From a virus (lineage: Duplodnaviria; Caudoviricetes): a stretch of DNA of 64,000 nucleotides. Of the stretch, positions 7,465 to 57,392 are shown in pieces. Positions within the stretch are counted from its first letter, which is position 1, and every line of letters starts with the position of its first letter. The stretch lies in the IMG/VR virus record IMGVR_UViG_3300028591_000096; one strand, written 5' to 3'. The notes under the pieces were generated by a model. That model was not told where the DNA came from and made no database searches. It saw only the letters and a list, made by a program, of their open reading frames with translations. A program made the translations under genes and the position numbers.

Positions 7465-8757
7465 ATGGAAGAACAGAATTTTAACCCAGAAACATGTACT
7501 ATTGATGAGCTTAAAGCTGTAATAGAAAAATATAAAGATGAAGAAGAGTATTATAACACTATGCAGTTGTCAGCAAAAACGTTCATTAACAGCGTATATG
7601 GATATTTTGGTACATCGTTTGGACAGCTCGCAAATTCGGATATTGCTGAATCTATTACACTTCAAGGTCAAGATTTGATCAAATTTTCTGTTATAGAGAT
7701 TAACAAATATATAAATGAGTTTTGGAACCAGGATTATGAAGGTCATAAACGTATAGCTGATAGACTTAGAAATATATTTGGTGATGCGTTCAAATATGAT
7801 GAATTTTTAGAGTTATCTAAACGTAACTCGCTGAAAATCAACACGTTACAAGTATATGGAGATACGGATTCTGCATATATCACATTACAACCAATTATCG
7901 ATACGTGTTGCATACCAGCAGATCAGCAGTTAGAATTTGATCTTGCTTTTTATGAGGAGATTCTCGAAGGTTATATGGATGAAAAGTTCGATGAATATGC
8001 TAAGAGAAATCATTGTAAGCATAATTATGAAAAGTTTGAGCTGGAAAAAATCTCAAGAACTATCATCATGCTTGCAAAGAAAAACTATATGTGTGATGTT
8101 GAATGGATTGATACTGGAACAAGATTTGATCCTCTTGAACATATAACGTATACTGGATTTGATGTTGTAAAGGGTACAACAACAGATTACTGTCGTGAGG
8201 AAATGAAAACGTTTGTAAACTACGTTATGGGTATTCTTAACTCAGGAAGAAAACCAACGCTAAGTGAAATTGTTTCAAAGTTGAAAGAAATAAAGAAACG
8301 TTTTATTATGCAGAATCCAAATGATATATCAATAACTAAAGGTATATCAAATTATGAGAATTTTGTAAAAAACGACAAGACACCAGATATTGAATATTAT
8401 CAATTTAAGACAAAAGTTGATGAAAACGGAAATGAATATCTTACAAAGGATAAACTTCCAATTCCAATCCATGTAAGGGCTGCTGCTGTTTATAACAATA
8501 TGTTGTTCAATAAAGGTAAGAAATATAAGAGTAAGTATTCTCTTTTGAAATCTGGTGAAAAGGTTAGATTCTATTATACTGGTGAAGATACTGTTTTTGG
8601 GTTTGTTCCAGATTCTTTTCCAATTGAATTTGCACCAGCTATAGATATTGATATACAGTTTGAGAAAATGTTGCTTAGCCCATTAAATCGTATTATTTCT
8701 GCTATGGGATATTTTGAAATTCCACCAACATTAACATATACTAAAAGTTTATTCTAA
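7465..8757 (+). CDS. Family B DNA polymerase, C-terminal subunit (motif B helix, motif C, thumb)
   Basis: QLSAKTFINSVYGYFG, YGDTDS, AKKNY, PIHVRAA; exonuclease domain and motif A absent. Confidence 0.9.
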   Translation: MEEQNFNPETCTIDELKAVIEKYKDEEEYYNTMQLSAKTFINSVYGYFGTSFGQLANSDIAESITLQGQDLIKFSVIEINKYINEFWNQDYEGHKRIADRLRNIFGDAFKYDEFLELSKRNSLKINTLQVYGDTDSAYITLQPIIDTCCIPADQQLEFDLAFYEEILEGYMDEKFDEYAKRNHCKHNYEKFELEKISRTIIMLAKKNYMCDVEWIDTGTRFDPLEHITYTGFDVVKGTTTDYCREEMKTFVNYVMGILNSGRKPTLSEIVSKLKEIKKRFIMQNPNDISITKGISNYENFVKNDKTPDIEYYQFKTKVDENGNEYLTKDKLPIPIHVRAAAVYNNMLFNKGKKYKSKYSLLKSGEKVRFYYTGEDTVFGFVPDSFPIEFAPAIDIDIQFEKMLLSPLNRIISAMGYFEIPPTLTYTKSLF

Positions 8758-27442: not shown

Positions 27443-28948
27443 ATGATAGTTAACACTGAGATTCATGATTATACTCGGAATGGTGTTCCTGTGCTTGATC
27501 AATATGGTAGAGCACAAAAATTCTTGTATATATCATATGTAGATAAAAATCAGACAATAAAACCATTTTTTTGGATGATACCTAATGAACTGATGTATCA
27601 ATGGAAATATGCTACTAAAGATGATACACCAGATCCATTGTATAAATCATGGGATGGTAAACCTGTTGTAAAAAAGCCAATAACAGATAAATTTTCTGAA
27701 CAAAGGGTTCATGAAATTATTATGGATCTTGAAAGATGGTTTCCAGAAAATGAGCAGCTTAAAGAGATACGTCAGATGTATATACCTAAAACTTCATATA
27801 TGGATATTGAAGTGGATGTTGATGATGATGGATTTCCAGAAGCAAAGGATGCTAAGAGACCAATAAACACGGTTGCTATAGTTGTTGAAGATGTTGTGTA
27901 TGTATTAGGTCTTGCAAATTTGACACAAGGTGAAATACAATGGATTCAGGATGAGATAACAAAACATTGTGCAAGATTTGATACAGATTATAAATTTGTA
28001 TATAGGTATCATGCATCTGAGTTTTCGCTTATGAATGATCTTGTATTTAGTTTTATAGATAAACTTGAGTGTGTTACTGGTTGGAACTGGTTTGGATATG
28101 ACTGGCCTTATATCTGTAATCGTGCACATAAGATTGGTCTTGATATTACTGGACTTTCTCCAACAAAAACATGGTTCCAATATAAACCACAGGATGTTTC
28201 TGCTGATGCAATAAAGCTTCCAATGCATAAATGCATGTATGACTATATGGAACTTTATAAGAAGCACGATCGATCGATTTCTCCAAAGGTAAGTAATAAA
28301 CTTGATTGGGTATCAGATAAAGTTTTAGGTGTTAAAAAGGTTGTTCATCAACTTGGGTTTAAAGAAATGTGGGAGAAGCAGAAGAAGGAATACGTATTCT
28401 ATAATGCTATTGATAGTGTACTTGTTAGGGAGATTGATAAGAAATTAAAAACAAGTTCTGTGATGTTTGGTTTGGCATCTCTTATGAATGTACCTGTGTT
28501 GTCAACGTATAGTTCAACAAAGAGTATTGAAATTGTCCAGGCAGAATATCTTTATAGGGAGAATAAGGTTTTTCCTGTTACAAAAAAAGATAAAGAAAAG
28601 AAAGAATATGAGGGTGCGTTTGTCTTTGCTCCTATTCCTGGAATATACAGAAATGTATATTGTCTTGACTACGCATCTCTTTATCCAACAACTATGCGAC
28701 AGTTTAATATATCTCCTGATACGCTATTATTTAAAGATAAGAACTATGTTCCTAAGGATAATGAAATAAAGTGTACAAATGGATGTGTTTATACAAACGA
28801 GTTTGAAGGATTTATTCCAAAGATTCTTAGTGATTACTTTGCTAAGCGTAAGGAATATAAGAAAATGATGATGAAAGCGGAAAAAGAAAAGTACCGTTTG
28901 ATGGAAATATTAAAAGAAAGAGAAAAGAAACTTAAATCAAATTTATAA
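27443..28948 (+). CDS. Family B DNA polymerase, N-terminal subunit (3'-5' exonuclease + motif A)
   Basis: MDIEV (ExoI), TGWNWFGYDWPY (ExoII), YNAID (ExoIII), YEGAFV, DYASLYP; ends in the fingers helix RKEYKKMM. Confidence 0.9.
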   Translation: MIVNTEIHDYTRNGVPVLDQYGRAQKFLYISYVDKNQTIKPFFWMIPNELMYQWKYATKDDTPDPLYKSWDGKPVVKKPITDKFSEQRVHEIIMDLERWFPENEQLKEIRQMYIPKTSYMDIEVDVDDDGFPEAKDAKRPINTVAIVVEDVVYVLGLANLTQGEIQWIQDEITKHCARFDTDYKFVYRYHASEFSLMNDLVFSFIDKLECVTGWNWFGYDWPYICNRAHKIGLDITGLSPTKTWFQYKPQDVSADAIKLPMHKCMYDYMELYKKHDRSISPKVSNKLDWVSDKVLGVKKVVHQLGFKEMWEKQKKEYVFYNAIDSVLVREIDKKLKTSSVMFGLASLMNVPVLSTYSSTKSIEIVQAEYLYRENKVFPVTKKDKEKKEYEGAFVFAPIPGIYRNVYCLDYASLYPTTMRQFNISPDTLLFKDKNYVPKDNEIKCTNGCVYTNEFEGFIPKILSDYFAKRKEYKKMMMKAEKEKYRLMEILKEREKKLKSNL

Positions 28949-39767: not shown

Positions 39768-41117
39768 ATGAAGCTCGAAGAAATTTTCAATCAGAAGAGA
39801 ACTGAGAACGGTGATATCGCTTTCACTAAGATTAATGATGACAATCTGTTAAATCTGTTGTTTCTTACAGAGTATTATCAGAATCATTTGTCAGAGGTAC
39901 AAATCGGTAACACTGAGAAAGACCAGTTGTTCGCTCGTTTTGTGCGCGATCCAAGATTCGGTCTCGGACGTAGAGATCTTGGACGTGTGTTGATGCACAT
40001 GGCTGGATGTTCTATCGAGGACATTGTAAAGTCTGGTCGTGTTGACGATCTATTCGTTTACGATTCTAAGTGTCGTGATTATTACATTGATGCCGATATT
40101 CTTGACTATCTTAAGAGAGAAATTGAGAATGGTAATGAACTTGTAAAGAAGTGGATGCCTCGCTACAGTTCTAAGAACCTAATGATCGCGCGTCAGATTG
40201 CAAAGTACTGGGGTATGAATAAGCAGCAGTACGGACACTTTATCAAGTGTAACACAACCGAAAACAAGCTTTCTCGTAAGAATACTAGTGAGATCAAGTT
40301 CGAGCAGGTTCCATCTCTTGCTATGATAAAGTATTTTAACCGATTCAAAACAAAGGAGGACACAAAGGATCGTTTCGAAAAGTATCTTGAAGATGTTCGT
40401 TCTGGGAAGAAGGAACTCAAGATCGCTACAACTACAGTGTACGACATCTATCGTAACCGTGACAAGATCGATCCTGTTTTGTTCTTCGACAGGATTGAGA
40501 AGATCAAGATCAATGCAATTCCTATTGTTGATACATCTGGCTCGATGTGTAACTCAAATGATTCGATAGGCAAAGCTTATGCTATCGGTCATTACATTGC
40601 TAAGTGTAGCACATATGCGCCTAATAAGGTTATTACGTTTAGTGATCATCCTACATTACTTACTCTTGGAGAAGAGAATATCTTCGCAGATGGTTGGTGT
40701 GGTAATAGACATGAAAAGCAGAATCTTTCACACTGTAAAAATCAGTATGAACGTGAGATTGAATCAATGTATACTGGAGATTGTTCAAATACAGATTTTG
40801 GTAGGGTTATGGAACTTCTGAAGGATCTTACAGATCTTCCTGAATATTTGGTTGTTCTTTCTGATTGTGAGTTTGATGCTGGTTCTAGACAATCAAAGTC
40901 AGAACTCGAAAGACTCTGGAGTGAACATGGATACACCACAAAGATTGTGTGGTGGAACCTTAACGAAAGAAATATCACGATACCTGAGATGGATCACAAT
41001 GGTAATATCTATCTGTCTGGATATTCTCCAATGCTTCTTAAGTTCCTTGAGGTTGGTTTCGATGGAACAGCGTTCCTTAACAAACTTCTTGATGAATACA
41101 AGAAAGCTGTAGGATAA
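39768..41117 (+). CDS. DUF2828-type TROVE/Ro60-like protein with C-terminal vWA domain
   Basis: RTENGD, RDPRFGLGRR, KWMPR, F.QVPSLAM; MIDAS DTSGSM, NTDF, LSDCEFD, IVWWNL. Confidence 0.75.
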   Translation: MKLEEIFNQKRTENGDIAFTKINDDNLLNLLFLTEYYQNHLSEVQIGNTEKDQLFARFVRDPRFGLGRRDLGRVLMHMAGCSIEDIVKSGRVDDLFVYDSKCRDYYIDADILDYLKREIENGNELVKKWMPRYSSKNLMIARQIAKYWGMNKQQYGHFIKCNTTENKLSRKNTSEIKFEQVPSLAMIKYFNRFKTKEDTKDRFEKYLEDVRSGKKELKIATTTVYDIYRNRDKIDPVLFFDRIEKIKINAIPIVDTSGSMCNSNDSIGKAYAIGHYIAKCSTYAPNKVITFSDHPTLLTLGEENIFADGWCGNRHEKQNLSHCKNQYEREIESMYTGDCSNTDFGRVMELLKDLTDLPEYLVVLSDCEFDAGSRQSKSELERLWSEHGYTTKIVWWNLNERNITIPEMDHNGNIYLSGYSPMLLKFLEVGFDGTAFLNKLLDEYKKAVG

Positions 41118-41143
41118 ATATATTGTACACTACGATCCTTGAG

Positions 41144-41217
41144 GACAGACGTACAGCAAACATCTTTATAAGATCATATTAATAAATTATGTATGTATAA
41201 CTTATAAAAATCTGTTG
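41144..41217 (+). ncRNA. CAGCAA-family small RNA 1 (candidate Y-like RNA)
   Basis: GACAGAC-GTA-CAGCAA ... ATCTGTT-G; outer stem CGATCCT/AGGATCG. Confidence 0.6.
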
Positions 41218-41239
41218 GAGGATCGACTATATATTTCAA

Positions 41240-41298
41240 GGAAGTTGCACAGCAAATAGACTTTATAAATTATACATGAGATTGAAAAACGACTTCTG
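41240..41298 (+). ncRNA. CAGCAA-family small RNA 2
   Basis: GGAAGTT-GCA-CAGCAA ... GACTTCT-G. Confidence 0.65.
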
Positions 41299-41405: not shown

Positions 41406-42080
41406 ATGAATAATAGAAAAGATTTTTATCTCTATGCAAGAGATCGAGGACTTTCCTCTTTGACGCTTGATGGGTACGCTAAATTCAACGATGCTTACAT
41501 CAATCCTACAATTCTTGAGGAACGTAAGTTAAATGTAGCACAAATGGATATTTTCAGCCGTTTACAGGCAGATCGCATTGTTTTCCTTGGCGTGCCTATT
41601 GATGACGATGTTGCTAATATTGTACAGGCGCAGCTTCTCTACCTTTCGTCAAATGATGATAAATCAGATATTTCTCTTTATCTGAACACACCAGGAGGAC
41701 ACGTATCGTCTGGTCTAGGTATCTATGATACGATGCAGCTTATCAGCCCAGACGTGTCTACAATATGTACTGGTATGGCTGCTTCTATGGGTGCTGTTCT
41801 TCTCTGTGCTGGAGAAAAAGGAAAACGTAATATACTTCCACACTCTCGTGTACTTATCCATCAGCCCCTCGGTGGAACCGAAGGACAAGCATCAGATATT
41901 ATGATTGCGGCAAAGGAAATGCAGAAGACAAAAGAGGAACTTCTTCATATTATCGCAGATCACACTGGACAGCTTTATGAAAAAATCCTTGTTGATGCAG
42001 ACCGTGACTACTGGATGAATGCACAGGAAGCTGTTGAATATGGCATGGTTGATAATATAATGAAAAAGAAAAAGAAATAA
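41406..42080 (+). CDS. clpP: ATP-dependent Clp protease proteolytic subunit
   Basis: MDIFSRL, YLNTPGG, GMAASMG (Ser), IHQPLGG (His), DRDYWM (Asp). Confidence 0.95.
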   Translation: MNNRKDFYLYARDRGLSSLTLDGYAKFNDAYINPTILEERKLNVAQMDIFSRLQADRIVFLGVPIDDDVANIVQAQLLYLSSNDDKSDISLYLNTPGGHVSSGLGIYDTMQLISPDVSTICTGMAASMGAVLLCAGEKGKRNILPHSRVLIHQPLGGTEGQASDIMIAAKEMQKTKEELLHIIADHTGQLYEKILVDADRDYWMNAQEAVEYGMVDNIMKKKKK

Positions 42081-42231: not shown

Positions 42232-42762
42232 ATGGCAAAGAAAACAACTGATAAAGATACAAAGGTTATTACGACAAAGACTGTCGAAGAGACTCCTGCT
42301 GTATCTGAACAGAAAGAAGAGAATGTTGTAAATCTTGAGAAGGTTGATGATACTGACGACAAGAATGATGTTTCTGAGGTAATTGCTACTGAGAACATTT
42401 CTGAGAATGTTGAGAAAGAAGATACACCAGAGAATGCAGAGCCACTTGATAAGCCTGAAACACCAACAGAAATGCTGAACGAGTCTGCATCTGATGATAA
42501 GAAAGACGACGAAGAGAAGGATGAAGAGTCAAAAGATGATGAGGAGGATAAAACAGAATATACTGTAGATACTCCAGCAATCTCAGAATCGATTGATCCA
42601 GAGTCCGCAGGTATGAGTAGTATCACACCAGCATATGTTGCATGCCCACCTATCAAGGATGCATACGTTGCGTCAGACGATACGCCAACATATACAGCAC
42701 AATGTCCACCTAAGCCAGCGACGGAAAAACCAGATGCTTATGTAGCACAGAAACCGTACTAA
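42232..42762 (+). CDS. Acidic low-complexity hypothetical protein
   Basis: 176 aa, D/E-rich, late promoter upstream. Confidence 0.65.
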   Translation: MAKKTTDKDTKVITTKTVEETPAVSEQKEENVVNLEKVDDTDDKNDVSEVIATENISENVEKEDTPENAEPLDKPETPTEMLNESASDDKKDDEEKDEESKDDEEDKTEYTVDTPAISESIDPESAGMSSITPAYVACPPIKDAYVASDDTPTYTAQCPPKPATEKPDAYVAQKPY

Positions 42763-42782
42763 AAGGCTTAAAGTATAAAGTT

Positions 42783-42815
42783 AATGGTGGACTTGATAAA
42801 AGTTCACCATTTTTT
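42783..42815 (+). terminator. Intrinsic terminator
   Basis: AATGGTGGACTT/AAGTTCACCATT followed by a T run. Confidence 0.75.
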
Positions 42816-42886
42816 GTTTTCATAATCGAAAATAAAGTTGTATATTTGCAACGTTGAAACAAGAGTTCTTTGAAGCAATATAATAT

Positions 42887-42960
42887 CGCGCATTGGTAGC
42901 AGTTGGTAGCTCGCCAGGCTCATAACCTGGAGGTCCTGTGTTCGAGTCACAGATGCGCAA
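42887..42960 (+). tRNA. tRNA-fMet(CAT)
   Basis: Cloverleaf, C1xA72 mismatch, CCAGG-CTCATAA-CCTGG. Confidence 0.9.
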
Positions 42961-42983
42961 CTAGTTGATAATCAGAAACTTAT

Positions 42984-43057
42984 GCTTCTTTAGCTCAGTT
43001 GGTCAGAGCACGATATTTGTAATATCGGGGTCGTTGGTTCGAAGCCGACAAGAAGCT
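42984..43057 (+). tRNA. tRNA-Thr(TGT)
   Basis: GCTTCTT/AAGAAGC acceptor; CGATA-TTTGTAA-TATCG. Confidence 0.9.
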
Positions 43058-43333
43058 CAACACCCAAAGATACTGATGATGGGGATATAAAACAATCGGT
43101 AGGTTATAGACGAAACTGACCTATGTAGTCAAGTTATATGTTGTCTGGAGTGAGTGGTGATCACAAACAGAGTTACAACTATTATAAAACCTTGATGAAT
43201 AGTACAAAAGTTAGACGTGATCTGAAGGTTGTTATTCAGGAAATTCCAAGATTGAAAAACCTAATAAGTGGTGGAAGTTTTTATTCAACAGCTCAGAACA
43301 AATGAATGCAAAACTTGACGATATTGGCAATTT

Positions 43334-43407
43334 GGAGGATTAAGCTTAACTAGCTAAACTGCTAGATTTGCATTATAGTCTTATCGGATCGTACCAGATA
43401 TCTTCCA
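43334..43407 (+). tRNA. Degenerate tRNA-Ala(TGC)
   Basis: GGAGGAT/ATCTTCC acceptor, TTTGCAT loop, mismatched arms, T-loop ATCGTAC. Confidence 0.5.
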
Positions 43408-43431
43408 CAAATCAATTATAGACCGCAAAAT

Positions 43432-43553
43432 GGAAGTCATAACAGCAATATATGAAATAAGCTTTTGGAGACTGTATTGATGGTTTTGAATCAATCTCCG
43501 ACAACATTTTGTGGATAGTGTAATGGTAACACGCAGTATTATATAGACTTCTA
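43432..43553 (+). ncRNA. CAGCAA-family RNA 3 with a circularly permuted tRNA domain (YrlA-like topology)
   Basis: GGAAGTC...GACTTCT stem; inside, in order: ACTG, T-arm, closed acceptor hairpin, D-arm, CAGT. Confidence 0.7.
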
Positions 43554-43648
43554 AATAATGAGTTCTTTGAAAATATAAAAATACAAAATCTGGAATTTCC
43601 GCCTACCTAAAAATTATACTGGTTGTGGCTTTGTCCAGATTGAGTAAT

Positions 43649-43720
43649 GGAAGACATACAGCAAACTATCTTTAATCGTGTAATTAGTTTTGAATAAGTG
43701 GTGGAAATTAAAGTCTTCTG
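43649..43720 (+). ncRNA. CAGCAA-family small RNA 4
   Basis: GGAAGAC-ATA-CAGCAA ... GTCTTCT-G. Confidence 0.7.
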
Positions 43721-43732
43721 AAGATATATGAT

Positions 43733-43791
43733 GAGAGGCATACAGCAAACTTTTAGCAATGAACTTTTAATTCATGACAAGCAGCCTCTTG
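43733..43791 (+). ncRNA. CAGCAA-family small RNA 5 with a Lys(UUU)-like anticodon arm
   Basis: GAGAGGC-ATA-CAGCAA ... ATGAA-CTTTTAA-TTCAT ... GCCTCTT-G. Confidence 0.7.
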
Positions 43792-43797
43792 ATTGAT

Positions 43798-43835
43798 GGA
43801 AAACACACAGCAATTTTTAAATGTAGTGTGGTGGT
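43798..43835 (+). ncRNA. CAGCAA-family RNA 6, truncated by MITE copy C
   Basis: GGAAAAC-ACA-CAGCAA; 3' strand of the stem absent. Confidence 0.5.
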
Positions 43836-44070
43836 GTGCTTAACAGTTAAATAAATATTTAAACAAAACTTAACATTTTAGTGAAAAACAAATATGGTGC
43901 AGTACACCAGAATTTAAGCTTGTGGAGAACCAAACTGCCGAATGGCGAACCACACGAAAGTGTGTGGCTATGGATGACCCAATCAGAAATGATTCGCTAA
44001 AAAGTAGTGGTAGGTTGAAACAAGAAGTTGATAATGAACAAACAAGTTTGTTCAAGTTTTAACATACTGT
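43836..44070 (+). mobile_element. IS607-like MITE copy C (with an extra ~30-nt hairpin)
   Basis: Same ends as A/B; insertion containing CCACAC-GAAA-GTGTGTGG. Confidence 0.85.
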
Positions 44071-44107
44071 AGTTGGTCACACGTAGGTTCAAATCCTATC
44101 ACCTCAA
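44071..44107 (+). pseudogene. 3' half of a tRNA (T-arm + acceptor strand) orphaned next to MITE C
   Basis: GTAGG-TTCAAAT-CCTAT-CACCTCA. Confidence 0.55.
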
Positions 44108-44112
44108 CAAAT

Positions 44113-44187
44113 GATCTATTCGTTCAAAAGTTAGGATTCCACTCTGTCACAGTGGAGAAGAGAGGGCAGTACTCTCATAGACCGCCA
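44113..44187 (+). tRNA. tRNA-Asp(GTC), non-canonical T-loop
   Basis: CCACT-CTGTCAC-AGTGG; T-arm GAGAG-GGCAGTA-CTCTC; encoded CCA. Confidence 0.75.
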
Positions 44188-44194
44188 GTTAATA

Positions 44195-44268
44195 GACTCC
44201 GTAGCTCAGTTGGTATATGCACTTGACTTTTAATCAAGGGGTCATGGGTTCAAGTCCCATCGGTGTCA
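44195..44268 (+). tRNA. tRNA-Lys(TTT)
   Basis: CTTGA-CTTTTAA-TCAAG; T-arm ATGGG-TTCAAGT-CCCAT. Confidence 0.85.
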
Positions 44269-44393
44269 CAAGTATTCTTATGAGAGAACAAGGTGAAAGA
44301 CCAAGATTACCTCAAATTATTTAATAGAAGTTAAATAGTGGTCGAAGGAGTTAGTTTAGTTAGCGTTTTAAAACACTCATAAGAATATTATAT

Positions 44394-44467
44394 GGTGACA
44401 TTGGCCGAGTGGTTTAGGCGCAAGTTTGTGGCACTTGTTTACGTTGGCTCGAATCCAACACGTCACC
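44394..44467 (+). tRNA. tRNA-His(GTG)
   Basis: G-1:C73; CAAGT-TTGTGGC-ACTTG. Confidence 0.8.
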
Positions 44468-44881
44468 CTCTTTAAAACAATAGTATATACAAAAACGTTT
44501 AACCCGAGAATGATAGGTTGGCAAAATGCAGTAGCCGTAAAACAATAATTACTGTTTAACAATTCTGCACAGGGTTCATACTTGGAATAATAGTGATGGT
44601 TCAGCGAAATCTGAAAAGTATAAAACTATAGGTGAAAGTCCTAAAAAACGTCCTATCTATATGCTATTTATTTCCGTCTTAATGAAGTTTAAGTTGAAAT
44701 ACCGCCCTCGTTGCTTGTGCAGACATATGCCTTGAATATGTTGAAAAAATTATCGGTACACGAAAGGGAATACGGTTGACCTTTCATTTTTAAGAAATAC
44801 GGAGGTTGGGTCGCACCCAAATATCCAAAGAGTAGTTTCGGGATAAACTTTGGAGAAACAATTAAACAAATTCCCGTACAA

Positions 44882-44965
44882 GGTGGAGTGCCGGAACGGT
44901 AACGGGCCTGACTTGAAATCAGAGGCATCTTTCGGGGTGAGTGGGTTCGACTCCTACCTCCACCG
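44882..44965 (+). tRNA. tRNA-Ser(TGA)
   Basis: GGTGGAG/CTCCACC acceptor, CTTGAAA loop, long variable arm, G73. Confidence 0.9.
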
Positions 44966-44994
44966 CAAAAAATAAAGGGTTTATAACATAAATA

Positions 44995-45417
44995 ATGATA
45001 AAGATATGTGAATATTGTAAAAAAGAGTTTGAAACAACAAAATCTAATAGAAAATTTTGTTGTGTGCAATGTCAAAGTAAACAGAGACATATAGAATCAT
45101 ATAAAGATTTTATAGAAAATAATGAAAAATATTGCAAGGGCAATTATACACCTAAAAATTTTAAAAATGAGTTTATGAAAGAACAAGAAAATCACTGTGC
45201 AATATGTGGTTGTTTACCAGAACATAATGGAAAACCTTTGGTCTTTGTTCTTGACCATATCGATGGTGACGCTTCGAATAATAGAAGAGAAAATTTAAGA
45301 ATGATTTGTCCTAATTGTGATAGCCAATTAGATACATTTAAATCTAAAAATAAAAATAGCAAACGCAGAAATTATTGGAAGGAACATATAATTAAACAAG
45401 TATTAGAAGAGAATTAA
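44995..45417 (+). CDS. HNH homing endonuclease within the tRNA array
   Basis: CAICG, LDHIDGDASNNRRENLRMICPNCDSQ. Confidence 0.85.
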   Translation: MIKICEYCKKEFETTKSNRKFCCVQCQSKQRHIESYKDFIENNEKYCKGNYTPKNFKNEFMKEQENHCAICGCLPEHNGKPLVFVLDHIDGDASNNRRENLRMICPNCDSQLDTFKSKNKNSKRRNYWKEHIIKQVLEEN

Positions 45418-45514
45418 AGTTATAAATACAACCTGAATTGCTGTGTACGGGGATAAGGAGAAATGTAGTACTAAACCAAGCAGATTGACCACCTCCTATC
45501 AGTATTTATATAAT

Positions 45515-45602
45515 GGAGAGTTACCCAAGTTGGTGAAGGGGGCACATTGCTAACGTGCTAGGTCTGTAAAAGGGCGCAGGGGTTCGAGTCCCTTACTCTC
45601 CG
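45515..45602 (+). tRNA. tRNA-Ser(GCT)
   Basis: GGAGAGT/ACTCTCC acceptor, TTGCTAA loop, long variable arm. Confidence 0.9.
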
Positions 45603-45627
45603 CAGTTTTAACAATATTTATTTACAA

Positions 45628-45698
45628 TGGAGCATGGTGTAATGGCAGCACAACAGATTTTGGTTCTGTTTGTCTGAGTTCGAATCTCGGTGCTCCAA
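45628..45698 (+). tRNA. tRNA-Gln(TTG)
   Basis: TGGAGCA/TGCTCCA acceptor; ACAGA-TTTTGGT-TCTGT. Confidence 0.9.
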
Positions 45699-45885
45699 CG
45701 AATACTGCACGTAGTTTAAGGTATGGGTTTGATAACGCACATACAATTTTGTATGCGATGATTTGGAAGTAGTACTGAAATTCCTTTTCACGAAAAACTA
45801 TACTAAAAGCATTCTCAATGACTATTTGGAAGAGATTATTGCAGTTGCTCTTTAAAAAGGAAATCCATTATAGAGAATGTGCAAT

Positions 45886-45965
45886 GCTCCAATGGTGGAA
45901 TTGGTAGACACGCTTGTCTCAAAAGCAGGTCTGAAAGGGTGTAGGTTCGAGTCCTACTTGGAGTA
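45886..45965 (+). tRNA. tRNA-Leu(CAA)
   Basis: GGTGGAATTGGTAGACAC D-arm; CTCAAAA loop. Confidence 0.85.
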
Positions 45966-46079
45966 CAAAGTTGGAATTTGGTATAGGAAGGGGCATGGTA
46001 ACAACATTGTGAAACTGTGGGTTATGATACGTGATAACCTTACCCACTACCATCTTGCAAGAGTTCCAACCTTTTATAT

Positions 46080-46154
46080 GCTCTCATCATACTAATCGGT
46101 TTAGGTGGTTGCCCTCTCAAGGCAAAGATATGAGTTCGAATCTCATTGGGAGTA
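46080..46154 (+). tRNA. tRNA-Glu(CTC)
   Basis: TTGCC-CTCTCAA-GGCAA; ATGAG-TTCGAAT-CTCAT. Confidence 0.8.
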
Positions 46155-46160
46155 CAATTT

Positions 46161-46246
46161 GCTCACGTGCTGCAAATGGTAGACAGGCTTGACTAAGGAT
46201 CAAGTGTTCCGAAAGGACAATGTGGTTTCGAGTCCAAGCGGGCGCA
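46161..46246 (+). tRNA. Degenerate tRNA-Leu(AAG)
   Basis: CTTGA-CTAAGGA-TCAAG; mismatches in acceptor and T stems. Confidence 0.6.
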
Positions 46247-46329
46247 CAAATGATATAAACACAAAACAAATAATATAGGCCAAGTTCTTAGCGTTACCTT
46301 ATTAGGTTAGAGCGTTCTTCAGGCCACAT

Positions 46330-46424
46330 GGAAGTCATACTGCAAAACTTACTTTTACTTTTTATGACTTGATTGTTATGTAAATTTAGGTTTAACTGAG
46401 TACGGCATAGAACTTAGACTTCTG
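46330..46424 (+). ncRNA. CAGCAA-family RNA 7 (CTGCAA variant)
   Basis: GGAAGTC-ATA-CTGCAA ... GACTTCT-G. Confidence 0.6.
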
Positions 46425-46529
46425 TTATATTTGATTCTTTTTCAAGATATACTGATAAATTTCTAAAGAAAAAAGAATCGATTTTTTCGAAGATAAATAA
46501 ATTGCATTAAAACAAAACAATTTGGAAAA

Positions 46530-47397: not shown

Positions 47398-47754
47398 ATG
47401 TTTGGAATCGATTATAACAATATAAAGAAAGGTGATATTGTATATATTGCTTCTGATGATAAAAGATATGGCTTACATGAATATGAAGCTGAAGTAACAT
47501 CTGTCGGAAAAAAGTATATTACAATAGAAAGATACGGACGTAAAAAACAGTTTAGTAAAGAAACTGGATATTTAAAAGACTGGTCAGAATGGAAAATGTA
47601 TCCAAGTAAAGAAGACTATAATAAAGAGAAAGAAGCGGATGAAAAGAGAATGTATATAAACCATCATATAGATGATGCTATAAGATATGGAATGACATTC
47701 GATGAGATCGATCAGATTTATAAATTAGTTAAAAACATAAAGGATGCGAAATGA
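47398..47754 (+). CDS. Hypothetical protein (SH3-like beta-barrel)
   Basis: IKKGDIVY...VTSVGKKYITI. Confidence 0.6.
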   Translation: MFGIDYNNIKKGDIVYIASDDKRYGLHEYEAEVTSVGKKYITIERYGRKKQFSKETGYLKDWSEWKMYPSKEDYNKEKEADEKRMYINHHIDDAIRYGMTFDEIDQIYKLVKNIKDAK

Positions 47755-47844: not shown

Positions 47845-49194
47845 ATGACACAAGAAGAAAAGGCTAAAGCATATGACGAGGTTCTTGAACAATTAAGGGC
47901 AATGATGCCTAATTGGGAGAACTTATCTTATAATGGTAAGACGTTTCTACAAGACCTTGTGCATATTATTCCTGAACTCAAAGAGAGCTATAGTGAAGAT
48001 GAGAAGATAAGAAAAGCGTTGATAGAACTTGTTAAATGCAACGAAAGAGGAGGGTATAAACTGCTTAATAATGTACATACAAGTTCTATGCTTGCTTGGC
48101 TTGAAAAGCAAGGTGAGAAGAAGTTTATTATTTCAGATGATGCTCTTAGAGAAGGAATAGCACATTTTGGAATTACTCAATACCAGATAGATAATTGGTT
48201 AAAGAAGTATGTTGATGTTGAAAAGCAAGGCTCGCAAATTCTTGCTAATTCTGCAAAAACTTGCAAGGATGAACAGAAACCTATAGATAAGGCAGAGCCA
48301 AAGTTCAAGGTGGGTGATTTGGTTGTATCGAATTTAGACGGAAATGCAAGACAAATTTCTGAAGTTCATTTTGATGAATATAATAGTTATTATGTGGTTG
48401 ATGGAGAAGATGTTAATTTAGAAGAATACGATAGACTACATCATCTTTGGACCATCAAAGATGCAAAGGATGGTGATGTGCTTGTGTGCGTTGGTGATGA
48501 AAGGCCATTTATTTTCAAAGGTTTATTAGACCCTAATCATCCTAATTGTCCTGTAGCATATTGTGGTATTGATGATGAAAATCTTTTTTGGTGTAGTTCT
48601 GGTAAAAATTGGTGGACAGACGATGATGTAAAACCAGCTACCAAAGAGCAACGTGATGCCCTAATGAAGGCAATGGCTGATGAAGGGTTGGAATTTGACT
48701 TTGAGAAGAAGAAGATTGAGAAGAAGATTGAGAAGAAGATTGAACAGAAGTCTGCTTGGAGTAAAGAGGATAAAAGAAAACTTAATTGGGTTATCAATGT
48801 TTGGAATAGACTTCGTAGAGGTGGTGATGCACAAACTACACCGAGTCAAATGGAAATGCTCGAAGATTGGCTTAAATCCCTCAAAGATAGAGTTGGTTGT
48901 GAAGCAAATTGCATAACAACCAAAGAGTGTAGTGTTGAGGACATATCTAAAATACAAAGAATATGTAAGTATTTGGACGAAGCTAAGAAATATTATGCTG
49001 ACATTACTGAAGTTAGAGAATGTATAGACTGGCTCAAATCCATTAAAGATAGATACATTTGGAAGCCGAGTGATGCGCAAATTAAGGCATTTGAACATTT
49101 TGTACGTGCTTGGGGTGAAAGTGGTACAGCTTCTCCTTATGACAACAACACTAAGTTGATTTATTCATTATTAGAACAATTAAAGAAAGTATAA
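47845..49194 (+). CDS. Modular hypothetical protein (MTQEEKAKAYDE / EPKFKVGD / WTIKDAKDGDVL / WSxED / WKPS modules)
   Basis: 449-aa ORF; paralogous to 52385-52972. Confidence 0.75.
   Translation: MTQEEKAKAYDEVLEQLRAMMPNWENLSYNGKTFLQDLVHIIPELKESYSEDEKIRKALIELVKCNERGGYKLLNNVHTSSMLAWLEKQGEKKFIISDDALREGIAHFGITQYQIDNWLKKYVDVEKQGSQILANSAKTCKDEQKPIDKAEPKFKVGDLVVSNLDGNARQISEVHFDEYNSYYVVDGEDVNLEEYDRLHHLWTIKDAKDGDVLVCVGDERPFIFKGLLDPNHPNCPVAYCGIDDENLFWCSSGKNWWTDDDVKPATKEQRDALMKAMADEGLEFDFEKKKIEKKIEKKIEQKSAWSKEDKRKLNWVINVWNRLRRGGDAQTTPSQMEMLEDWLKSLKDRVGCEANCITTKECSVEDISKIQRICKYLDEAKKYYADITEVRECIDWLKSIKDRYIWKPSDAQIKAFEHFVRAWGESGTASPYDNNTKLIYSLLEQLKKV
48707..48742 (+). repeat. 12-bp tandem repeat (AGAAGAAGATTG)x3
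   Basis: Encodes KKIE x3. Confidence 0.7.
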
Positions 49195-55830: not shown

Positions 55831-55904
55831 GCACCATTAGCTCAGTTGGATAGAGCAATAGCCTTCTAAGCTGTGGGTCATAGGTTCGAATCCTATATGG
55901 TGTA
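55831..55904 (+). tRNA. tRNA-Arg(TCT)
   Basis: Canonical cloverleaf, CTTCTAA loop. Confidence 0.9.
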
Positions 55905-55910
55905 CAACAA

Positions 55911-55982
55911 GCTCCGTTAGCTCAGAGGTAGAGCAACTGACTGTTAATCAGTAGGTCGGGATATCGTAATTCTCACGGAGCG
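55911..55982 (+). tRNA. tRNA-Asn(GTT), non-canonical T-loop
   Basis: ACTGA-CTGTTAA-TCAGT; T-loop ATCGTAA. Confidence 0.8.
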
Positions 55983-57159: not shown

Positions 57160-57392
57160 ATTGTAGGTTTGTTGACCAGTATAAGGAGTGCGTATGGACA
57201 GCGGTTCGACTCCGCTCATCTCCACTAACTGATTGATAATCAGATATTTACATAATGGGGATGTTTGGCTTTGACAGCGCAGGATGGATATTGCGAGGAT
57301 CTGCATGAGTCAGAAATGACAACACAACCTTTTATGCTATTGCTGCGTAAGACGCAGTAAAAGCGAGTTAGCAACCAACTAAAAAGTTGCAA
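57160..57392 (+). ncRNA. ssrA: Circularly permuted (two-piece) tmRNA; outer ends approximate
   Basis: 3' acceptor piece GGAC-AGCGG-TTCGACT-CCGCT-CATCTCC-A (ends 57224) precedes 5' piece GGGGATG...TTGAC (starts 57257). G3.U70 present. Tag NDNTTFYAIAA* at 57315-57350. Confidence 0.85.

What the first reader, a model, noticed from the sequence alone, without database searches (positions are those of the whole stretch)
43432..43553. One CAGCAA RNA contains a circularly permuted tRNA (YrlA-type topology)
Seen, 5' to 3' inside the closing stem: ACTG (43471), linker TATT, T-like arm GATGG-TTTTGAAT-CAATC (43479-43496), acceptor-like hairpin TCCGACA-loop-TGTGGA (43497-43515), TA, D-arm GTGT-AATGGTA-ACAC (43518-43532), G, CAGT (43534) pairing back to ACTG. 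This is a cloverleaf with the acceptor end sealed and the anticodon stem opened toward the closing stem. Established: bacterial YrlA Y RNAs have this permuted tRNA domain joined to the Ro-binding stem. This is the strongest independent link between the CAGCAA family and Ro60 biology. The T-arm has one mismatch and an extra U, so this copy may be decaying.
Basis: partly seen in the sequence, partly recalled or inferred. Interest (0 to 1): 0.85.

Follow-up and report, generated by a model that had tools for sequence, protein, structure and literature searches.

The report
Phage Y-like RNA with permuted tRNA
A 121-nt non-coding RNA gene in this large gut or rumen phage holds a rearranged tRNA-Gln look-alike inside a conserved "handle", and that handle travels through hundreds of phages with a gene for a Ro60-shaped RNA-binding protein, so it is most likely a new kind of Y RNA, though this copy is the most worn member found.

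Summary
Window 43432-43552 (+) has a 7-bp closing stem, the motif CAGCAA, then a T arm, a sealed acceptor hairpin and a D arm in permuted order.

I add one correction. The anticodon arm is not simply opened. A complete nicked arm is present: CAGU 43534-37 plus C43462 pairs with GACUG 43470-74 around the loop UUUUGGA. Joined at that nick, the sequence is called tRNA-Gln(UUG) by ARAGORN.

At least 26 further units in other phages share this architecture, with strong covariation. A model built without the window's copy finds it at 43 bits (E 7e-7).

The handle lies beside, and on the strand of, a DUF2828/DUF7788 gene in 73 of 89 loci. That protein (window 39768-41117) models as Ro60 (Z 19.7).

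It is therefore a YrlA-like Y RNA, but not a YrlA member. It has no GNCGAA motif, only a 7-bp stem, a retained anticodon loop and no Rfam hit.

This copy is the weakest member and is missing at the same spot in the nearest relatives, so it may be decaying.

Protein binding and function are inferred, not shown. Earlier reports from this scan describe the same system on other DNA. I found it in no paper searched and in no Rfam family.

The parts
39768..41117 (+). Gene for a 449-aa DUF2828/DUF7788 protein, a Ro60-like helical ring domain plus a vWA domain with a MIDAS site. Presumed protein partner of the handle RNAs.
   Evidence: Pfam hits PF11443 and PF25043. D255xS257xS259 is invariant in 75 homologs. 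The AF2 model has pLDDT 89.7. The top 13 Foldseek hits are all Ro60/TROVE proteins. VIA-align gives Z 19.7 over 386 residues against Xenopus Ro60 2i91_A, against Z <= 11.3 over about 150 residues for vWA-only hits.
43432..43438 (+). Handle: 5' strand of the 7-bp closing stem (GGAAGUC).
   Evidence: Pairs 7/7 with 43546-52, with G43432.U43552 as the first pair. All 7 pairs covary in the family.
43439..43448 (+). Handle: spacer AUAA plus the conserved CAGCAA motif (43443-48).
   Evidence: The units were selected for CAGCAA, so its invariance across them is by construction. Flanking positions that were not selected are conserved: A at -1 in 36/37 units and A at +7 in 31/37. The model search also finds variants CUGCAA, CCGCAA and CAGCAG at this position.
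43449..43461 (+). A/U-rich 5' linker from the handle to the tRNA body.
   Evidence: Read from the sequence. Family members carry a linker of roughly 5-30 nt at this place.
43462..43474 (+). Anticodon-arm mimic: C31, loop UUUUGGA (Gln UUG-like), then G39 and ACUG (nt 40-43).
   Evidence: 5/5 stem pairs with U33 and R37 present, and the nick after nt 30. ARAGORN calls the re-joined sequence tRNA-Gln(UUG).
43475..43478 (+). Variable loop UAUU. U43478 is nt 48, the Levitt partner of A15 (43523).
   Evidence: The 15:48 pair is G:C in 11 and A:U in 9 of 27 family units. This copy has A:U.
43479..43496 (+). T-arm mimic GAUGG/UUUUGAAU/CAAUC. It is defective: a G.A mismatch, an 8-nt loop, and U where C56 should be.
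   Evidence: All 15 seed units have 5/5 stem pairs, and all 26 other units tabulated have a 7-nt UUC(G/A)ANN loop.
43497..43515 (+). Sealed acceptor hairpin: UCC-G-ACA, loop ACAUUU, UGU-GGA.
   Evidence: 3+3 bp around a bulged G. Most family units have 6-8 contiguous bp abutting the T arm and U8, and all 6 modelled pairs covary.
43516..43533 (+). U8 A9, the D arm GUGU/AAUGGUA/ACAC, and G26.
   Evidence: A perfect 4-bp stem with the G18 G19 loop. It is near-identical to the D arm of the window's own tRNA-Gln at 45628-45699.
43534..43537 (+). CAGU, nt 27-30 of the anticodon stem, pairing with ACUG 43471-74.
43538..43553 (+). 3' linker AUUAUAUA, the closing-stem 3' strand GACUUCU (43546-52), and a tail base A.
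   Evidence: Family 3' linkers are similar in the units shown (for example UAUAUAA). In 37 units the first base after the stem is G, whereas here it is A.
41143..41297 (+). Two further handle RNAs directly downstream of the Ro60-like gene (41143-41224 and 41240-41297).
   Evidence: Orthologous units are present in L096, L098 and L099.
43649..43790 (+). Two further handle RNAs (43649-43719 and 43733-43790). The second carries only an anticodon-arm-like hairpin with loop CUUUUAA.
   Evidence: Orthologs lie at L098:4603-4736.

Best explanation
Window 43432-43552 is one member of a phage family of small RNAs built on a common handle. The handle is a 7-bp terminal stem whose first pair is R.U, followed by N2-4 and then CAGCAA.

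In this member the handle carries a circularly permuted, tRNA-Gln(UUG)-like body. The order is anticodon hairpin, variable loop, T arm, acceptor stem sealed by a loop, U8 A9, D arm, and the first four bases of the anticodon stem. The handle leaves the tRNA body through a nick between nt 30 and 31 of the anticodon stem.

Shown here: the architecture, its conservation and covariation in other phages, the Ro60-like fold of the neighbouring DUF2828/DUF7788 protein, and the tight same-strand linkage of handle RNAs with that gene.

Inferred: the handle is the binding site of the Ro60-like protein, as the GNCGAA stem is for canonical Ro60. The tRNA-shaped body would then present a tRNA look-alike to a tRNA-recognising factor, either to tether that factor to the Ro60-like ring or to act as a bait or decoy during infection. 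In the E. coli phage Bas63, gp130 has been reported to resemble Ro60 in structure and to counter the Ppl defence. I did not check that gp130 itself is a DUF2828 protein.

This copy has an intact handle, D arm and anticodon arm, but a damaged T arm and acceptor hairpin. It may therefore be a weakened or decaying member.
For: Architecture in the window.

Conservation of the architecture:
- Fifteen independent units with the same order were found next to DUF2828 genes.
- On their alignment, 89.4% of cells pair, against 31-43% when the partners are slid. 25 of 27 pairs show double changes, and the covariation score is 0.70 against 0.10-0.15.
- A model built from them finds about 12 more handle-bearing units. 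All 48 hits lie on the gene's strand.
- A nicked 5-bp anticodon stem with a 7-nt loop, U33 and R37 is present in 18 of 27 units, against 0.9% of shuffles.
- The Levitt 15:48 pair covaries, G:C in 11 and A:U in 9 of 27.

Protein: the Ro60-like fold and MIDAS site.

Linkage:
- 73 of 89 loci have at least one same-strand handle unit within 1.5 kb of the gene.
- Near the gene there are 182 same-strand and 6 opposite-strand units.
- Density is 0.71 per kb near the gene and 0.085 per kb further away.
- The pairing recurs in the cultured E. coli Felixounavirus nataliec and in mycobacteriophage Appletree2, where the protein is annotated 'Ro-like RNA binding protein' and is DUF2828/DUF7788.

Relation to YrlA: the Rfam YrlA model scores the tRNA core of such units at 37-40 bits. 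It gives the same score to the published ET08 YrlA.

Functional lead: Bas63 gp130 is Ro60-like, lies upstream of the tRNA genes, and counters Ppl (bioRxiv 10.1101/2024.10.10.617714).
Against: - No expression, end-mapping or binding data exist for this RNA or this protein. The partnership rests on synteny and analogy.
- This copy scores lowest among the handle-bearing permuted units whose closing stem aligns in full (43 bits against about 45-108; L008:9796, aligned with a poor closing stem, scores 40.9). It has a G.A mismatch and an extra U in the T arm, no C56, a bulged 3+3-bp acceptor, and a 3' tail A instead of G.
- It is absent at the syntenic site in the nearest relatives. L096 and L100 carry a 1.1-kb ORF there, and L098 goes from tRNA-Ala straight to the next handle RNA.
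- Thermodynamic folding prefers another structure.
- The covariance model also scores plain tRNA-tRNA junctions highly (61 bits at 55843-55955), so part of the 43 bits is generic tRNA signal.
- ARAGORN accepts many shuffled anticodon regions when the other arms are strong.
Confidence: 0.6

Rival explanations
1. A decaying copy. The locus descends from a functional handle RNA with a permuted tRNA body, but in this phage the body is eroding and the RNA no longer works as a tRNA mimic. At most it still occupies the protein through its intact handle.
For: - It scores lowest among the units whose closing stem aligns in full.
- It is the only unit with an 8-nt T loop, a T-stem mismatch and a bulged acceptor.
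- It is not present at the same site in L096, L100 or L098.
- Neighbouring tRNA-Ala-like and tRNA-Asp-like sequences in the window also fall below detection, while their orthologs in relatives are called.
Against: - The handle (7/7 pairs), CAGCAA, the D arm (4/4), the nicked anticodon stem (5/5), U8 A9 and the A15:U48 pair are all intact.
- The energy gap to the cloverleaf, 7.9 kcal/mol, is typical of the family.
Confidence: 0.25
2. A chance junction of two adjacent broken tRNA genes: the 3' half of one and the 5' half of the next. On this reading it is unrelated to the handle family.
For: - The locus lies in a tRNA cluster that contains degenerate tRNAs.
- Real tRNA-tRNA junctions give high scores with the permuted model.
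- A dimeric-tRNA origin has been proposed for YrlA itself (10.1101/312249).
Against: - The two halves are complementary to each other in both the acceptor and the anticodon stems, as in one tRNA.
- The unit is bracketed by the family handle in the correct register.
- At least 26 units elsewhere have the same design with covariation, whereas junction hits lack CAGCAA and a closing stem.
- No tRNA is called on either flank.
Confidence: 0.03
3. A tRNA-mimic decoy that works without the Ro60-like protein. It would soak up a host anticodon nuclease or a tRNA-modifying enzyme, and the handle would serve only for processing or stability.
For: - Anticodon-like loops of many different identities are kept across units (loops; ARAGORN's commonest assignments).
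- Another copy in the window displays only a Lys-like anticodon hairpin.
Against: - The handle is the most conserved part across phages whose proteins share about 25% identity. It is tightly linked to the gene, and on its strand.
- Many handle RNAs carry no tRNA part at all.
Confidence: 0.09
4. A precursor of a working tRNA-Gln. The handle would be removed and the nick sealed, and the acceptor loop opened by RNase P and 3' trimming, as for the permuted tRNA genes of the red alga Cyanidioschyzon merolae.
For: - All four arms are present, and ARAGORN accepts the re-joined sequence.
- M. smegmatis YrlA can be cut by RNase P and receive CCA (PMC4201824, outline and text).
Against: - Acceptor loops in the family are often only 1-6 nt, with no room for a discriminator and CCA. 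Here the stem is bulged.
- The phage already has a normal tRNA-Gln(UUG).
- Many handle RNAs have no tRNA body.
- No RNA ligase gene was found among the 40 window ORFs scanned.
Confidence: 0.03

Closest known systems
YrlA (Rfam RF02553), the tRNA-like Y RNA bound by bacterial and mycobacteriophage Ro60/Rsr (Chen et al. 2014, PMC4201824; structure preprint 10.1101/312249)
   Same: - A small RNA encoded within a few kb of, and on the strand of, a Ro60-type (helical ring plus vWA) gene.
- A terminal stem made from the two ends.
- An internal T arm, sealed acceptor and D arm in permuted order, with U8 A9 and a covarying 15:48 pair.
- It often occurs beside further non-tRNA-like sister RNAs.
- The YrlA model scores well-formed units of this family at 37-40 bits, the same as the published ET08 phage YrlA.
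   Different: - The handle is a 7-bp stem plus single-stranded CAGCAA. YrlA has a long bulged stem with GNCGAAN0-1G; in ET08 it is a stem of about 10 bp with GCCGAG.
- A complete anticodon stem-loop is kept, and the handle exits through a nick in that stem. YrlA has no anticodon loop.
- The partner protein is DUF2828/DUF7788, which Pfam TROVE does not recognise. ET08 gp220 is TROVE plus vWA_Ro60.
- The window copy gets no YrlA hit at E<=10.
Thermus phage phiLo Ro60 with Yrl1/Yrl2 (PMC12135203; PDB 9KOP, 9L5Y)
   Same: - A phage-encoded Ro60-type ring protein with adjacent small partner RNAs.
- 9KOP is the top Foldseek hit of the window's protein model.
   Different: - The phiLo RNAs are stem-bulge-stem Y RNAs defined by a CGAA motif, and no tRNA-like domain is reported for them.
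- The protein is a recognised Ro60 homolog.
Bas63 gp130, a Ro60-like protein of an E. coli phage reported as a counter of the Ppl defence (bioRxiv 10.1101/2024.10.10.617714)
   Same: - A phage protein reported as structurally similar to Ro60, encoded directly upstream of the tRNA cluster.
- Its authors guessed that some 'tRNA genes' there might be Y RNAs.
- In the E. coli Felixounavirus nataliec, the DUF2828/DUF7788 protein in the same position is followed by four handle RNAs, one of them a permuted tRNA.
   Different: - No partner RNA was identified or described in that work.
- I did not examine Bas63 itself, and I did not confirm that gp130 is a DUF2828 protein.
Circularly permuted tRNA genes of algae (Cyanidioschyzon merolae) and two-piece (permuted) tmRNA genes
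   Same: - The 3' half of a tRNA(-like) body is encoded upstream of the 5' half, with the acceptor strands joined by a spacer.
- The window itself has a permuted tmRNA gene at 57177-57350.
   Different: Those genes give functional, end-processed molecules. Here the acceptor is a short closed hairpin, and the break carries a conserved extra helix and motif.

Membership tests
YrlA (Rfam RF02553; Chen et al. 2014) | Score at or above the Rfam gathering threshold (69 bits) with the YrlA covariance model | tested here: not met
   No YrlA match at E<=10 in window 42500-46500. Well-formed relatives reach 37-40 bits. The published ET08 YrlA also reaches only 37.4 bits, so this threshold is a weak test for phage members.
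YrlA (Rfam RF02553; Chen et al. 2014) | GNCGAAN0-1G motif near the 5' end, the proposed Ro60 contact | tested here: not met
   The 5' region reads GGAAGUCAUAACAGCAAU, which contains no GNCGAA. The family motif is C(A/U/C)GCAA.
YrlA (Rfam RF02553; Chen et al. 2014) | tRNA-like domain in the order (V)-T arm-closed acceptor stem-D arm, with U8 A9 and a 15:48 pair | tested here: met
   The T arm is imperfect in this copy.
YrlA (Rfam RF02553; Chen et al. 2014) | Anticodon stem continues into the protein-binding stem, with no anticodon loop | tested here: not met
   A closed 7-nt loop, UUUUGGA, with a nicked 5-bp stem is present. The same holds in 18 of 27 family units.
YrlA (Rfam RF02553; Chen et al. 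2014) | Encoded within 4 kb of a Ro60 ortholog and on the same strand | tested here: inconclusive
   The RNA lies 2.3 kb downstream on the same strand. However, the protein is a DUF2828/DUF7788 structural homolog of Ro60 (Z 19.7), not a TROVE-family ortholog by Pfam.
CAGCAA-handle RNAs linked to DUF2828 genes (family defined in this scan, uncatalogued) | 7-bp terminal stem with an R.U first pair, then N2-4, then C(A/U/C)GCAA on the 5' side | tested here: met
   GGAAGUC/GACUUCU pair 7/7 with G.U as the first pair. The spacer is AUAA and CAGCAA lies at 43443-48. The 3' tail base is A instead of the usual G.
CAGCAA-handle RNAs linked to DUF2828 genes (family defined in this scan, uncatalogued) | Same strand as, and near, a DUF2828/DUF7788 gene | tested here: met
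   The gene is at 39768-41117 (+), 2.3 kb upstream. Two further units lie within 200 nt of its stop codon.
CAGCAA-handle RNAs linked to DUF2828 genes (family defined in this scan, uncatalogued) | Significant match to a covariance model of the permuted-tRNA subclass that was built without this sequence | tested here: met
   43 bits, E 6.6e-7 in the window and 1.2e-5 over 1.1 Mb, matching model positions 1-119.
Canonical tRNA gene | Detected in native order by ARAGORN or the Rfam tRNA model | tested here: not met
   There are no calls between 43058 and 44195.
Ro60/TROVE proteins (for the neighbouring gene) | Helical ring domain followed by a vWA domain with a MIDAS site, in one chain | tested here: met
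   By the predicted model only. Residues 5-431 align to Ro60 residues 11-537, with 386 residues aligned at rmsd 4.4 A. DxSxS is invariant. Pfam TROVE itself gives no hit.

The most novel reading that the evidence does not exclude
The handle RNAs form a modular 'display' system. The Ro60-like ring protein holds the CAGCAA handle while each RNA presents a different tRNA part or a whole tRNA look-alike. On ARAGORN's commonest readings of the re-joined units, the anticodon loops cover Gln, Thr, Ile, Ser, Phe, Lys, Asn, Arg, Trp, Gly and Leu identities. The RNP would bait, sequester or redirect host tRNA-targeting defence enzymes, or tRNA repair and turnover enzymes, during infection. On this reading Y-type RNPs are a general phage counter-defence device, and a phage's set of mimics reflects the tRNA-directed defences it meets.
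Probability: 0.15. Interest if true: 0.85.

Novelty: new variant of a known kind. Interest (0 to 1): 0.65.

Why it matters
What effector the tRNA-like domain of bacterial Y RNAs recruits is still an open question.

This family is a second solution to the same design. It has a Ro60-shaped protein, a different and very short RNA handle, and tRNA bodies that keep their anticodon loops.

It is present in hundreds of sequenced phages. These include easily grown E. coli and Salmonella Felix O1-like phages and mycobacteriophages, where the RNAs sit unannotated among the tRNA genes. A Ro60-like protein at this position in the E. coli phage Bas63 has a reported anti-defence phenotype.

The partnership and the purpose of tRNA mimicry can therefore be tested directly in a laboratory phage-host pair.

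For genome annotation, the result shows that 'spacers' in phage tRNA clusters can hold structured RNA genes. It also shows that models of permuted tRNAs cross-react with ordinary tRNA-tRNA junctions.

Tried and rejected
- Rfam at gathering and at E<=10 gave nothing at the locus.
- megablast against phage records matched only tRNA pieces.
- Two DNA-pattern scans for orthologs of this copy found nothing, one in viral contigs and one in metagenome contigs.
- The nearest relatives, reached through the neighbouring 176-aa ORF, lack this copy. No close-range ortholog comparison was therefore possible.
- The second 449-aa ORF (47845-49194) is not a paralog of the Ro60-like gene.
- Minimum-energy folding and its z-score do not discriminate.
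- ARAGORN calls on re-joined sequences proved a poor test of the anticodon arm, because shuffled flanks are also accepted when the other arms are strong. I replaced that test with an explicit pair count against shuffles.
- The supplementary tables of Chen et al. 2014 are not held.
- The records behind L096 and L098 are not held for whole-record searches.

Full report
**Setting.** The window has 33% G+C. It carries phage genes: a tail sheath, a terminase with an intein, a split family-B DNA polymerase, ThyX, a Dam methylase and ClpP. There are two tRNA clusters and a permuted tmRNA gene. The closest named relatives of the key protein are the Prevotella Lak megaphages, at 60% identity. The finding lies between tRNA-Thr (42984-43058) and tRNA-Lys (44195-44269), where neither ARAGORN nor Rfam calls anything, even at E<=10.

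**Observation.** These are the closing stem GGAAGUC 43432-38 with GACUUCU 43546-52, CAGCAA 43443-48, ACUG 43471-74, the variable loop UAUU, the T-like arm 43479-96, the hairpin UCC-G-ACA/UGU-GGA 43497-515, U8 A9, a perfect D arm 43518-32, G26, and CAGU 43534-37. The T-like arm has one G.A mismatch and an 8-nt loop UUUUGAAU.

One element was missed. C43462 pairs with G43470 and closes the 7-nt loop UUUUGGA. With CAGU/ACUG this gives a full 5-bp anticodon stem that is nicked between nt 30 and 31. Its loop resembles that of the phage's own tRNA-Gln(UUG) at 45628, whose loop is UUUUGGU. When I joined 43537 to 43462 in silico, ARAGORN at its default threshold called tRNA-Gln(UUG). That was the only one of 352 trial joins it accepted. 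No whole-sequence shuffle was called (0/200). Shuffling only the flanks gave a 5/5 stem with U33 and R37 in 2.5% of trials.

**Relatives.** The gene 2.3 kb upstream on the same strand (39768-41117) hits Pfam DUF2828 and DUF7788. I used it to fetch 15 and then 80 loci from IMG/VR, with protein identity ranging from 69% down to 25%. Units of the form '7-bp stem, 2-5 nt, CAGCAA, interior, complementary strand, U-G' cluster beside the gene.
- 73 of 89 loci have at least one same-strand unit within 1.5 kb.
- There are 182 same-strand and 6 opposite-strand units near the gene.
- Density is 0.71 per kb near the gene and 0.085 per kb further away.

The stem sequence changes freely while pairing is kept. 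CAGCAA was the search criterion, so its invariance across the 37 tabulated units is by construction. The unselected flanks are conserved, and variants CUGCAA, CCGCAA and CAGCAG turn up in the model search.

**The permuted-tRNA subclass.** Fifteen units from different phages have a canonical T arm, then a closed hairpin, then U-R and a canonical D arm.
- On their alignment, 89.4% of cells pair, against 31-43% for slid partners.
- 25 of 27 pairs show changes on both sides, including all six pairs of the sealed acceptor.
- The covariation score is 0.70 against 0.10-0.15 for the slid controls.

A covariance model built from these 15 units, without the window, finds window 43433-43552 over its full length at 43 bits (E 6.6e-7). 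It also finds about a dozen more handle-bearing units. All 48 hits lie on the gene's strand.

The nicked anticodon arm is a family feature. 21 of 27 units have 5/5 stem pairs, and 18 of 27 also have U33 and R37, against 5% and 0.9% of shuffles. The nick falls anywhere from nt 26/27 to 31/32. The tertiary 15:48 pair is G:C in 11 units and A:U in 9 of 27; here it is A:U. The anticodon-like loops differ between units. On ARAGORN's commonest readings of the re-joined sequences they cover Thr, Ile, Ser, Phe, Lys, Asn, Arg, Trp, Gly, Leu and Gln identities (loops). I give these ARAGORN assignments little weight. The program accepts shuffled anticodon regions when the other arms are strong.

**A caution about the model.** It also scores ordinary tRNA-tRNA junctions. 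The join of tRNA-Arg and the next tRNA at 55843-55955 gets 61 bits. Such hits lack CAGCAA, lack a good closing stem, and have non-complementary acceptor halves. The window's unit has all three features, and no tRNA is called on either flank. The 'chance junction of two broken tRNAs' reading is therefore rejected as a description. A tandem-tRNA origin is still plausible, and has been proposed for YrlA.

**The protein.**
- 75 homologs share an invariant DxSxS MIDAS motif.
- The profile's best match in PDB sequences is the vWA domain of Xenopus Ro60 (E 6.6e-5).
- The AlphaFold model (pLDDT 89.7) has only Ro60/TROVE proteins as its top 13 Foldseek hits, led by phage phiLo Ro60 9KOP.
- VIA-align gives Z 19.7 with 386 residues aligned at rmsd 4.4 A against Ro60 2i91_A. 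The match covers both domains. vWA-only proteins reach Z 11.3 or less over about 150 residues.

Pfam TROVE does not hit this protein. Homologs occur in 510 phage records. The listed records include Felixounaviruses of E. coli and Salmonella, jumbo phages, Campylobacter, Vibrio and Bacillus phages, and mycobacteriophages, and are often annotated 'RNA-binding protein', 'vWFA protein' or 'Ro-like RNA binding protein'.

**Checks in cultured phages.**
- E. coli phage nataliec has the DUF2828/DUF7788 gene followed, inside its tRNA cluster, by four unannotated handle RNAs. The last one (L110:7629-7751) is a permuted tRNA unit.
- Mycobacteriophage Appletree2 has three handle RNAs directly after its DUF2828/DUF7788 'Ro-like' gene. 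The middle one is permuted and is hit by Rfam YrlA at 39.8 bits.
- Mycobacteriophage ET08, used by Chen et al. 2014, has a true TROVE plus vWA_Ro60 protein. Its YrlA has a long terminal stem with GCCGAG, no CAGCAA and no anticodon loop, and scores 37.4 bits.

There are therefore two parallel systems: canonical Ro60 with GNCGAA-type Y RNAs, and DUF2828-type Ro60-like proteins with CAGCAA-handle RNAs.

**How it most likely works.** The architecture, covariation, protein fold and linkage are shown here. The following steps are inferred. The handle is the protein's binding site. The tRNA-shaped body engages a tRNA-recognising factor, either tethering it to the ring protein (as Y RNA tethers PNPase to Rsr) or baiting it. 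A preprint reports that Bas63 gp130 is Ro60-like by structure, sits upstream of the tRNA genes and counters the Ppl defence. Its authors guessed that some 'tRNAs' might be Y RNAs but identified none. I did not check that gp130 is itself a DUF2828 protein.

**State of this copy.** It scores lowest among the handle-bearing permuted units whose closing stem aligns in full (43 bits against about 45-108). It is the only unit with an 8-nt T loop, a T-stem mismatch, U in place of C56 and a bulged acceptor. Its tail base is A rather than G. The closest relatives I could reach have an 87-92% identical flank up to window 43411 and then diverge. L096 and L100 carry a 1.1-kb ORF at that point. L098 has a T-arm-only handle RNA before tRNA-Ala and nothing between tRNA-Ala and the ortholog of the next handle RNA. 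The handle, D arm, anticodon stem and 15:48 pair are intact. The energy penalty of the cloverleaf (7.9 kcal/mol) is ordinary for the family. I put roughly even odds on this copy being a working but divergent member or a decaying one.

**Comparison and novelty.** It works like a YrlA-type Y RNA but fails YrlA's defining tests for motif, stem, absence of an anticodon loop and Rfam score. I file it as a new variant of a known kind. I found no description of the handle RNAs in Rfam 15 or in the papers searched. Earlier reports from this scan describe the same system on other DNA; a word search for it returned 128 notes from at least 107 genomes, and all eight shown concerned this system. I read those after reaching my own conclusions. 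They agree with mine, including on the point that the handle joins the tRNA body at the anticodon stem.

**Limits.** No genome is held for the window.

Noticed in passing
window 43334-43408: This stretch aligns at 92% to a tRNA-Ala(UGC) that ARAGORN calls in the relatives L100:1517-1591 and L096:5142-5216. Neither ARAGORN nor Rfam calls it in the window. It may be a decaying or atypical tRNA immediately upstream of the finding.
   Followed up: partly
window 44110-44185: This stretch aligns at 76% to the tRNA-Asp(GUC) of L100:2725-2797. The window version keeps the GUC anticodon hairpin but reads GGCAGTA where the T loop should be, and it is not called as a tRNA.
   Followed up: partly
L100:1595-2720 and L096:5220-6346: In the nearest relatives a roughly 1.1-kb insert, apparently an ORF rich in cysteine pairs and possibly a homing-endonuclease-like gene, occupies the place where the window has the permuted-tRNA RNA. 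The content of this tRNA cluster turns over quickly.
   Followed up: no
L110:6919-7751 (Escherichia phage nataliec, MN850611.1 26544-27376): Four unannotated CAGCAA-handle RNAs lie among the annotated tRNAs of a cultured E. coli K-12 Felixounavirus, just downstream of its DUF2828/DUF7788 'vWFA protein'. The last one (7629-7751) is a permuted tRNA unit. This offers a tractable model system.
   Followed up: partly
L109:4440-4690 (Mycobacterium phage Appletree2): Three handle RNAs follow the 'Ro-like RNA binding protein' gp52, which is DUF2828/DUF7788 and not TROVE. The middle one is a permuted tRNA and is hit by Rfam YrlA at 39.8 bits, below the 69-bit threshold.
   Followed up: partly
window 55843-55955: The join between tRNA-Arg and the next tRNA scores 61 bits with the permuted-tRNA model. 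Any search for permuted tRNAs in tRNA clusters will pick up such junctions unless the handle and acceptor complementarity are checked.
   Followed up: yes
window 57177-57350: A permuted (two-piece type) tmRNA gene, matching Rfam RF04321 at 67.3 bits, lies in the same phage as ClpP (41406-42080).
   Followed up: no
window 47398-47754: An ORF with a phage ProQ C-terminal-like domain (PF24203, E 1e-14), a second putative RNA-binding protein, lies just after the first tRNA and handle-RNA cluster.
   Followed up: no
window 43733-43790: The interior of this handle RNA is only a 5-bp hairpin with the loop CUUUUAA, the anticodon loop of tRNA-Lys(UUU). Its ortholog in L098:4679-4736 has a different interior.
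   Followed up: partly
window 7465-8757 and 27443-28948: The family-B DNA polymerase is encoded in two separate ORFs about 19 kb apart. The exonuclease and N-terminal part of the polymerase is at 27443, and a later polymerase segment is at 7465.
   Followed up: no
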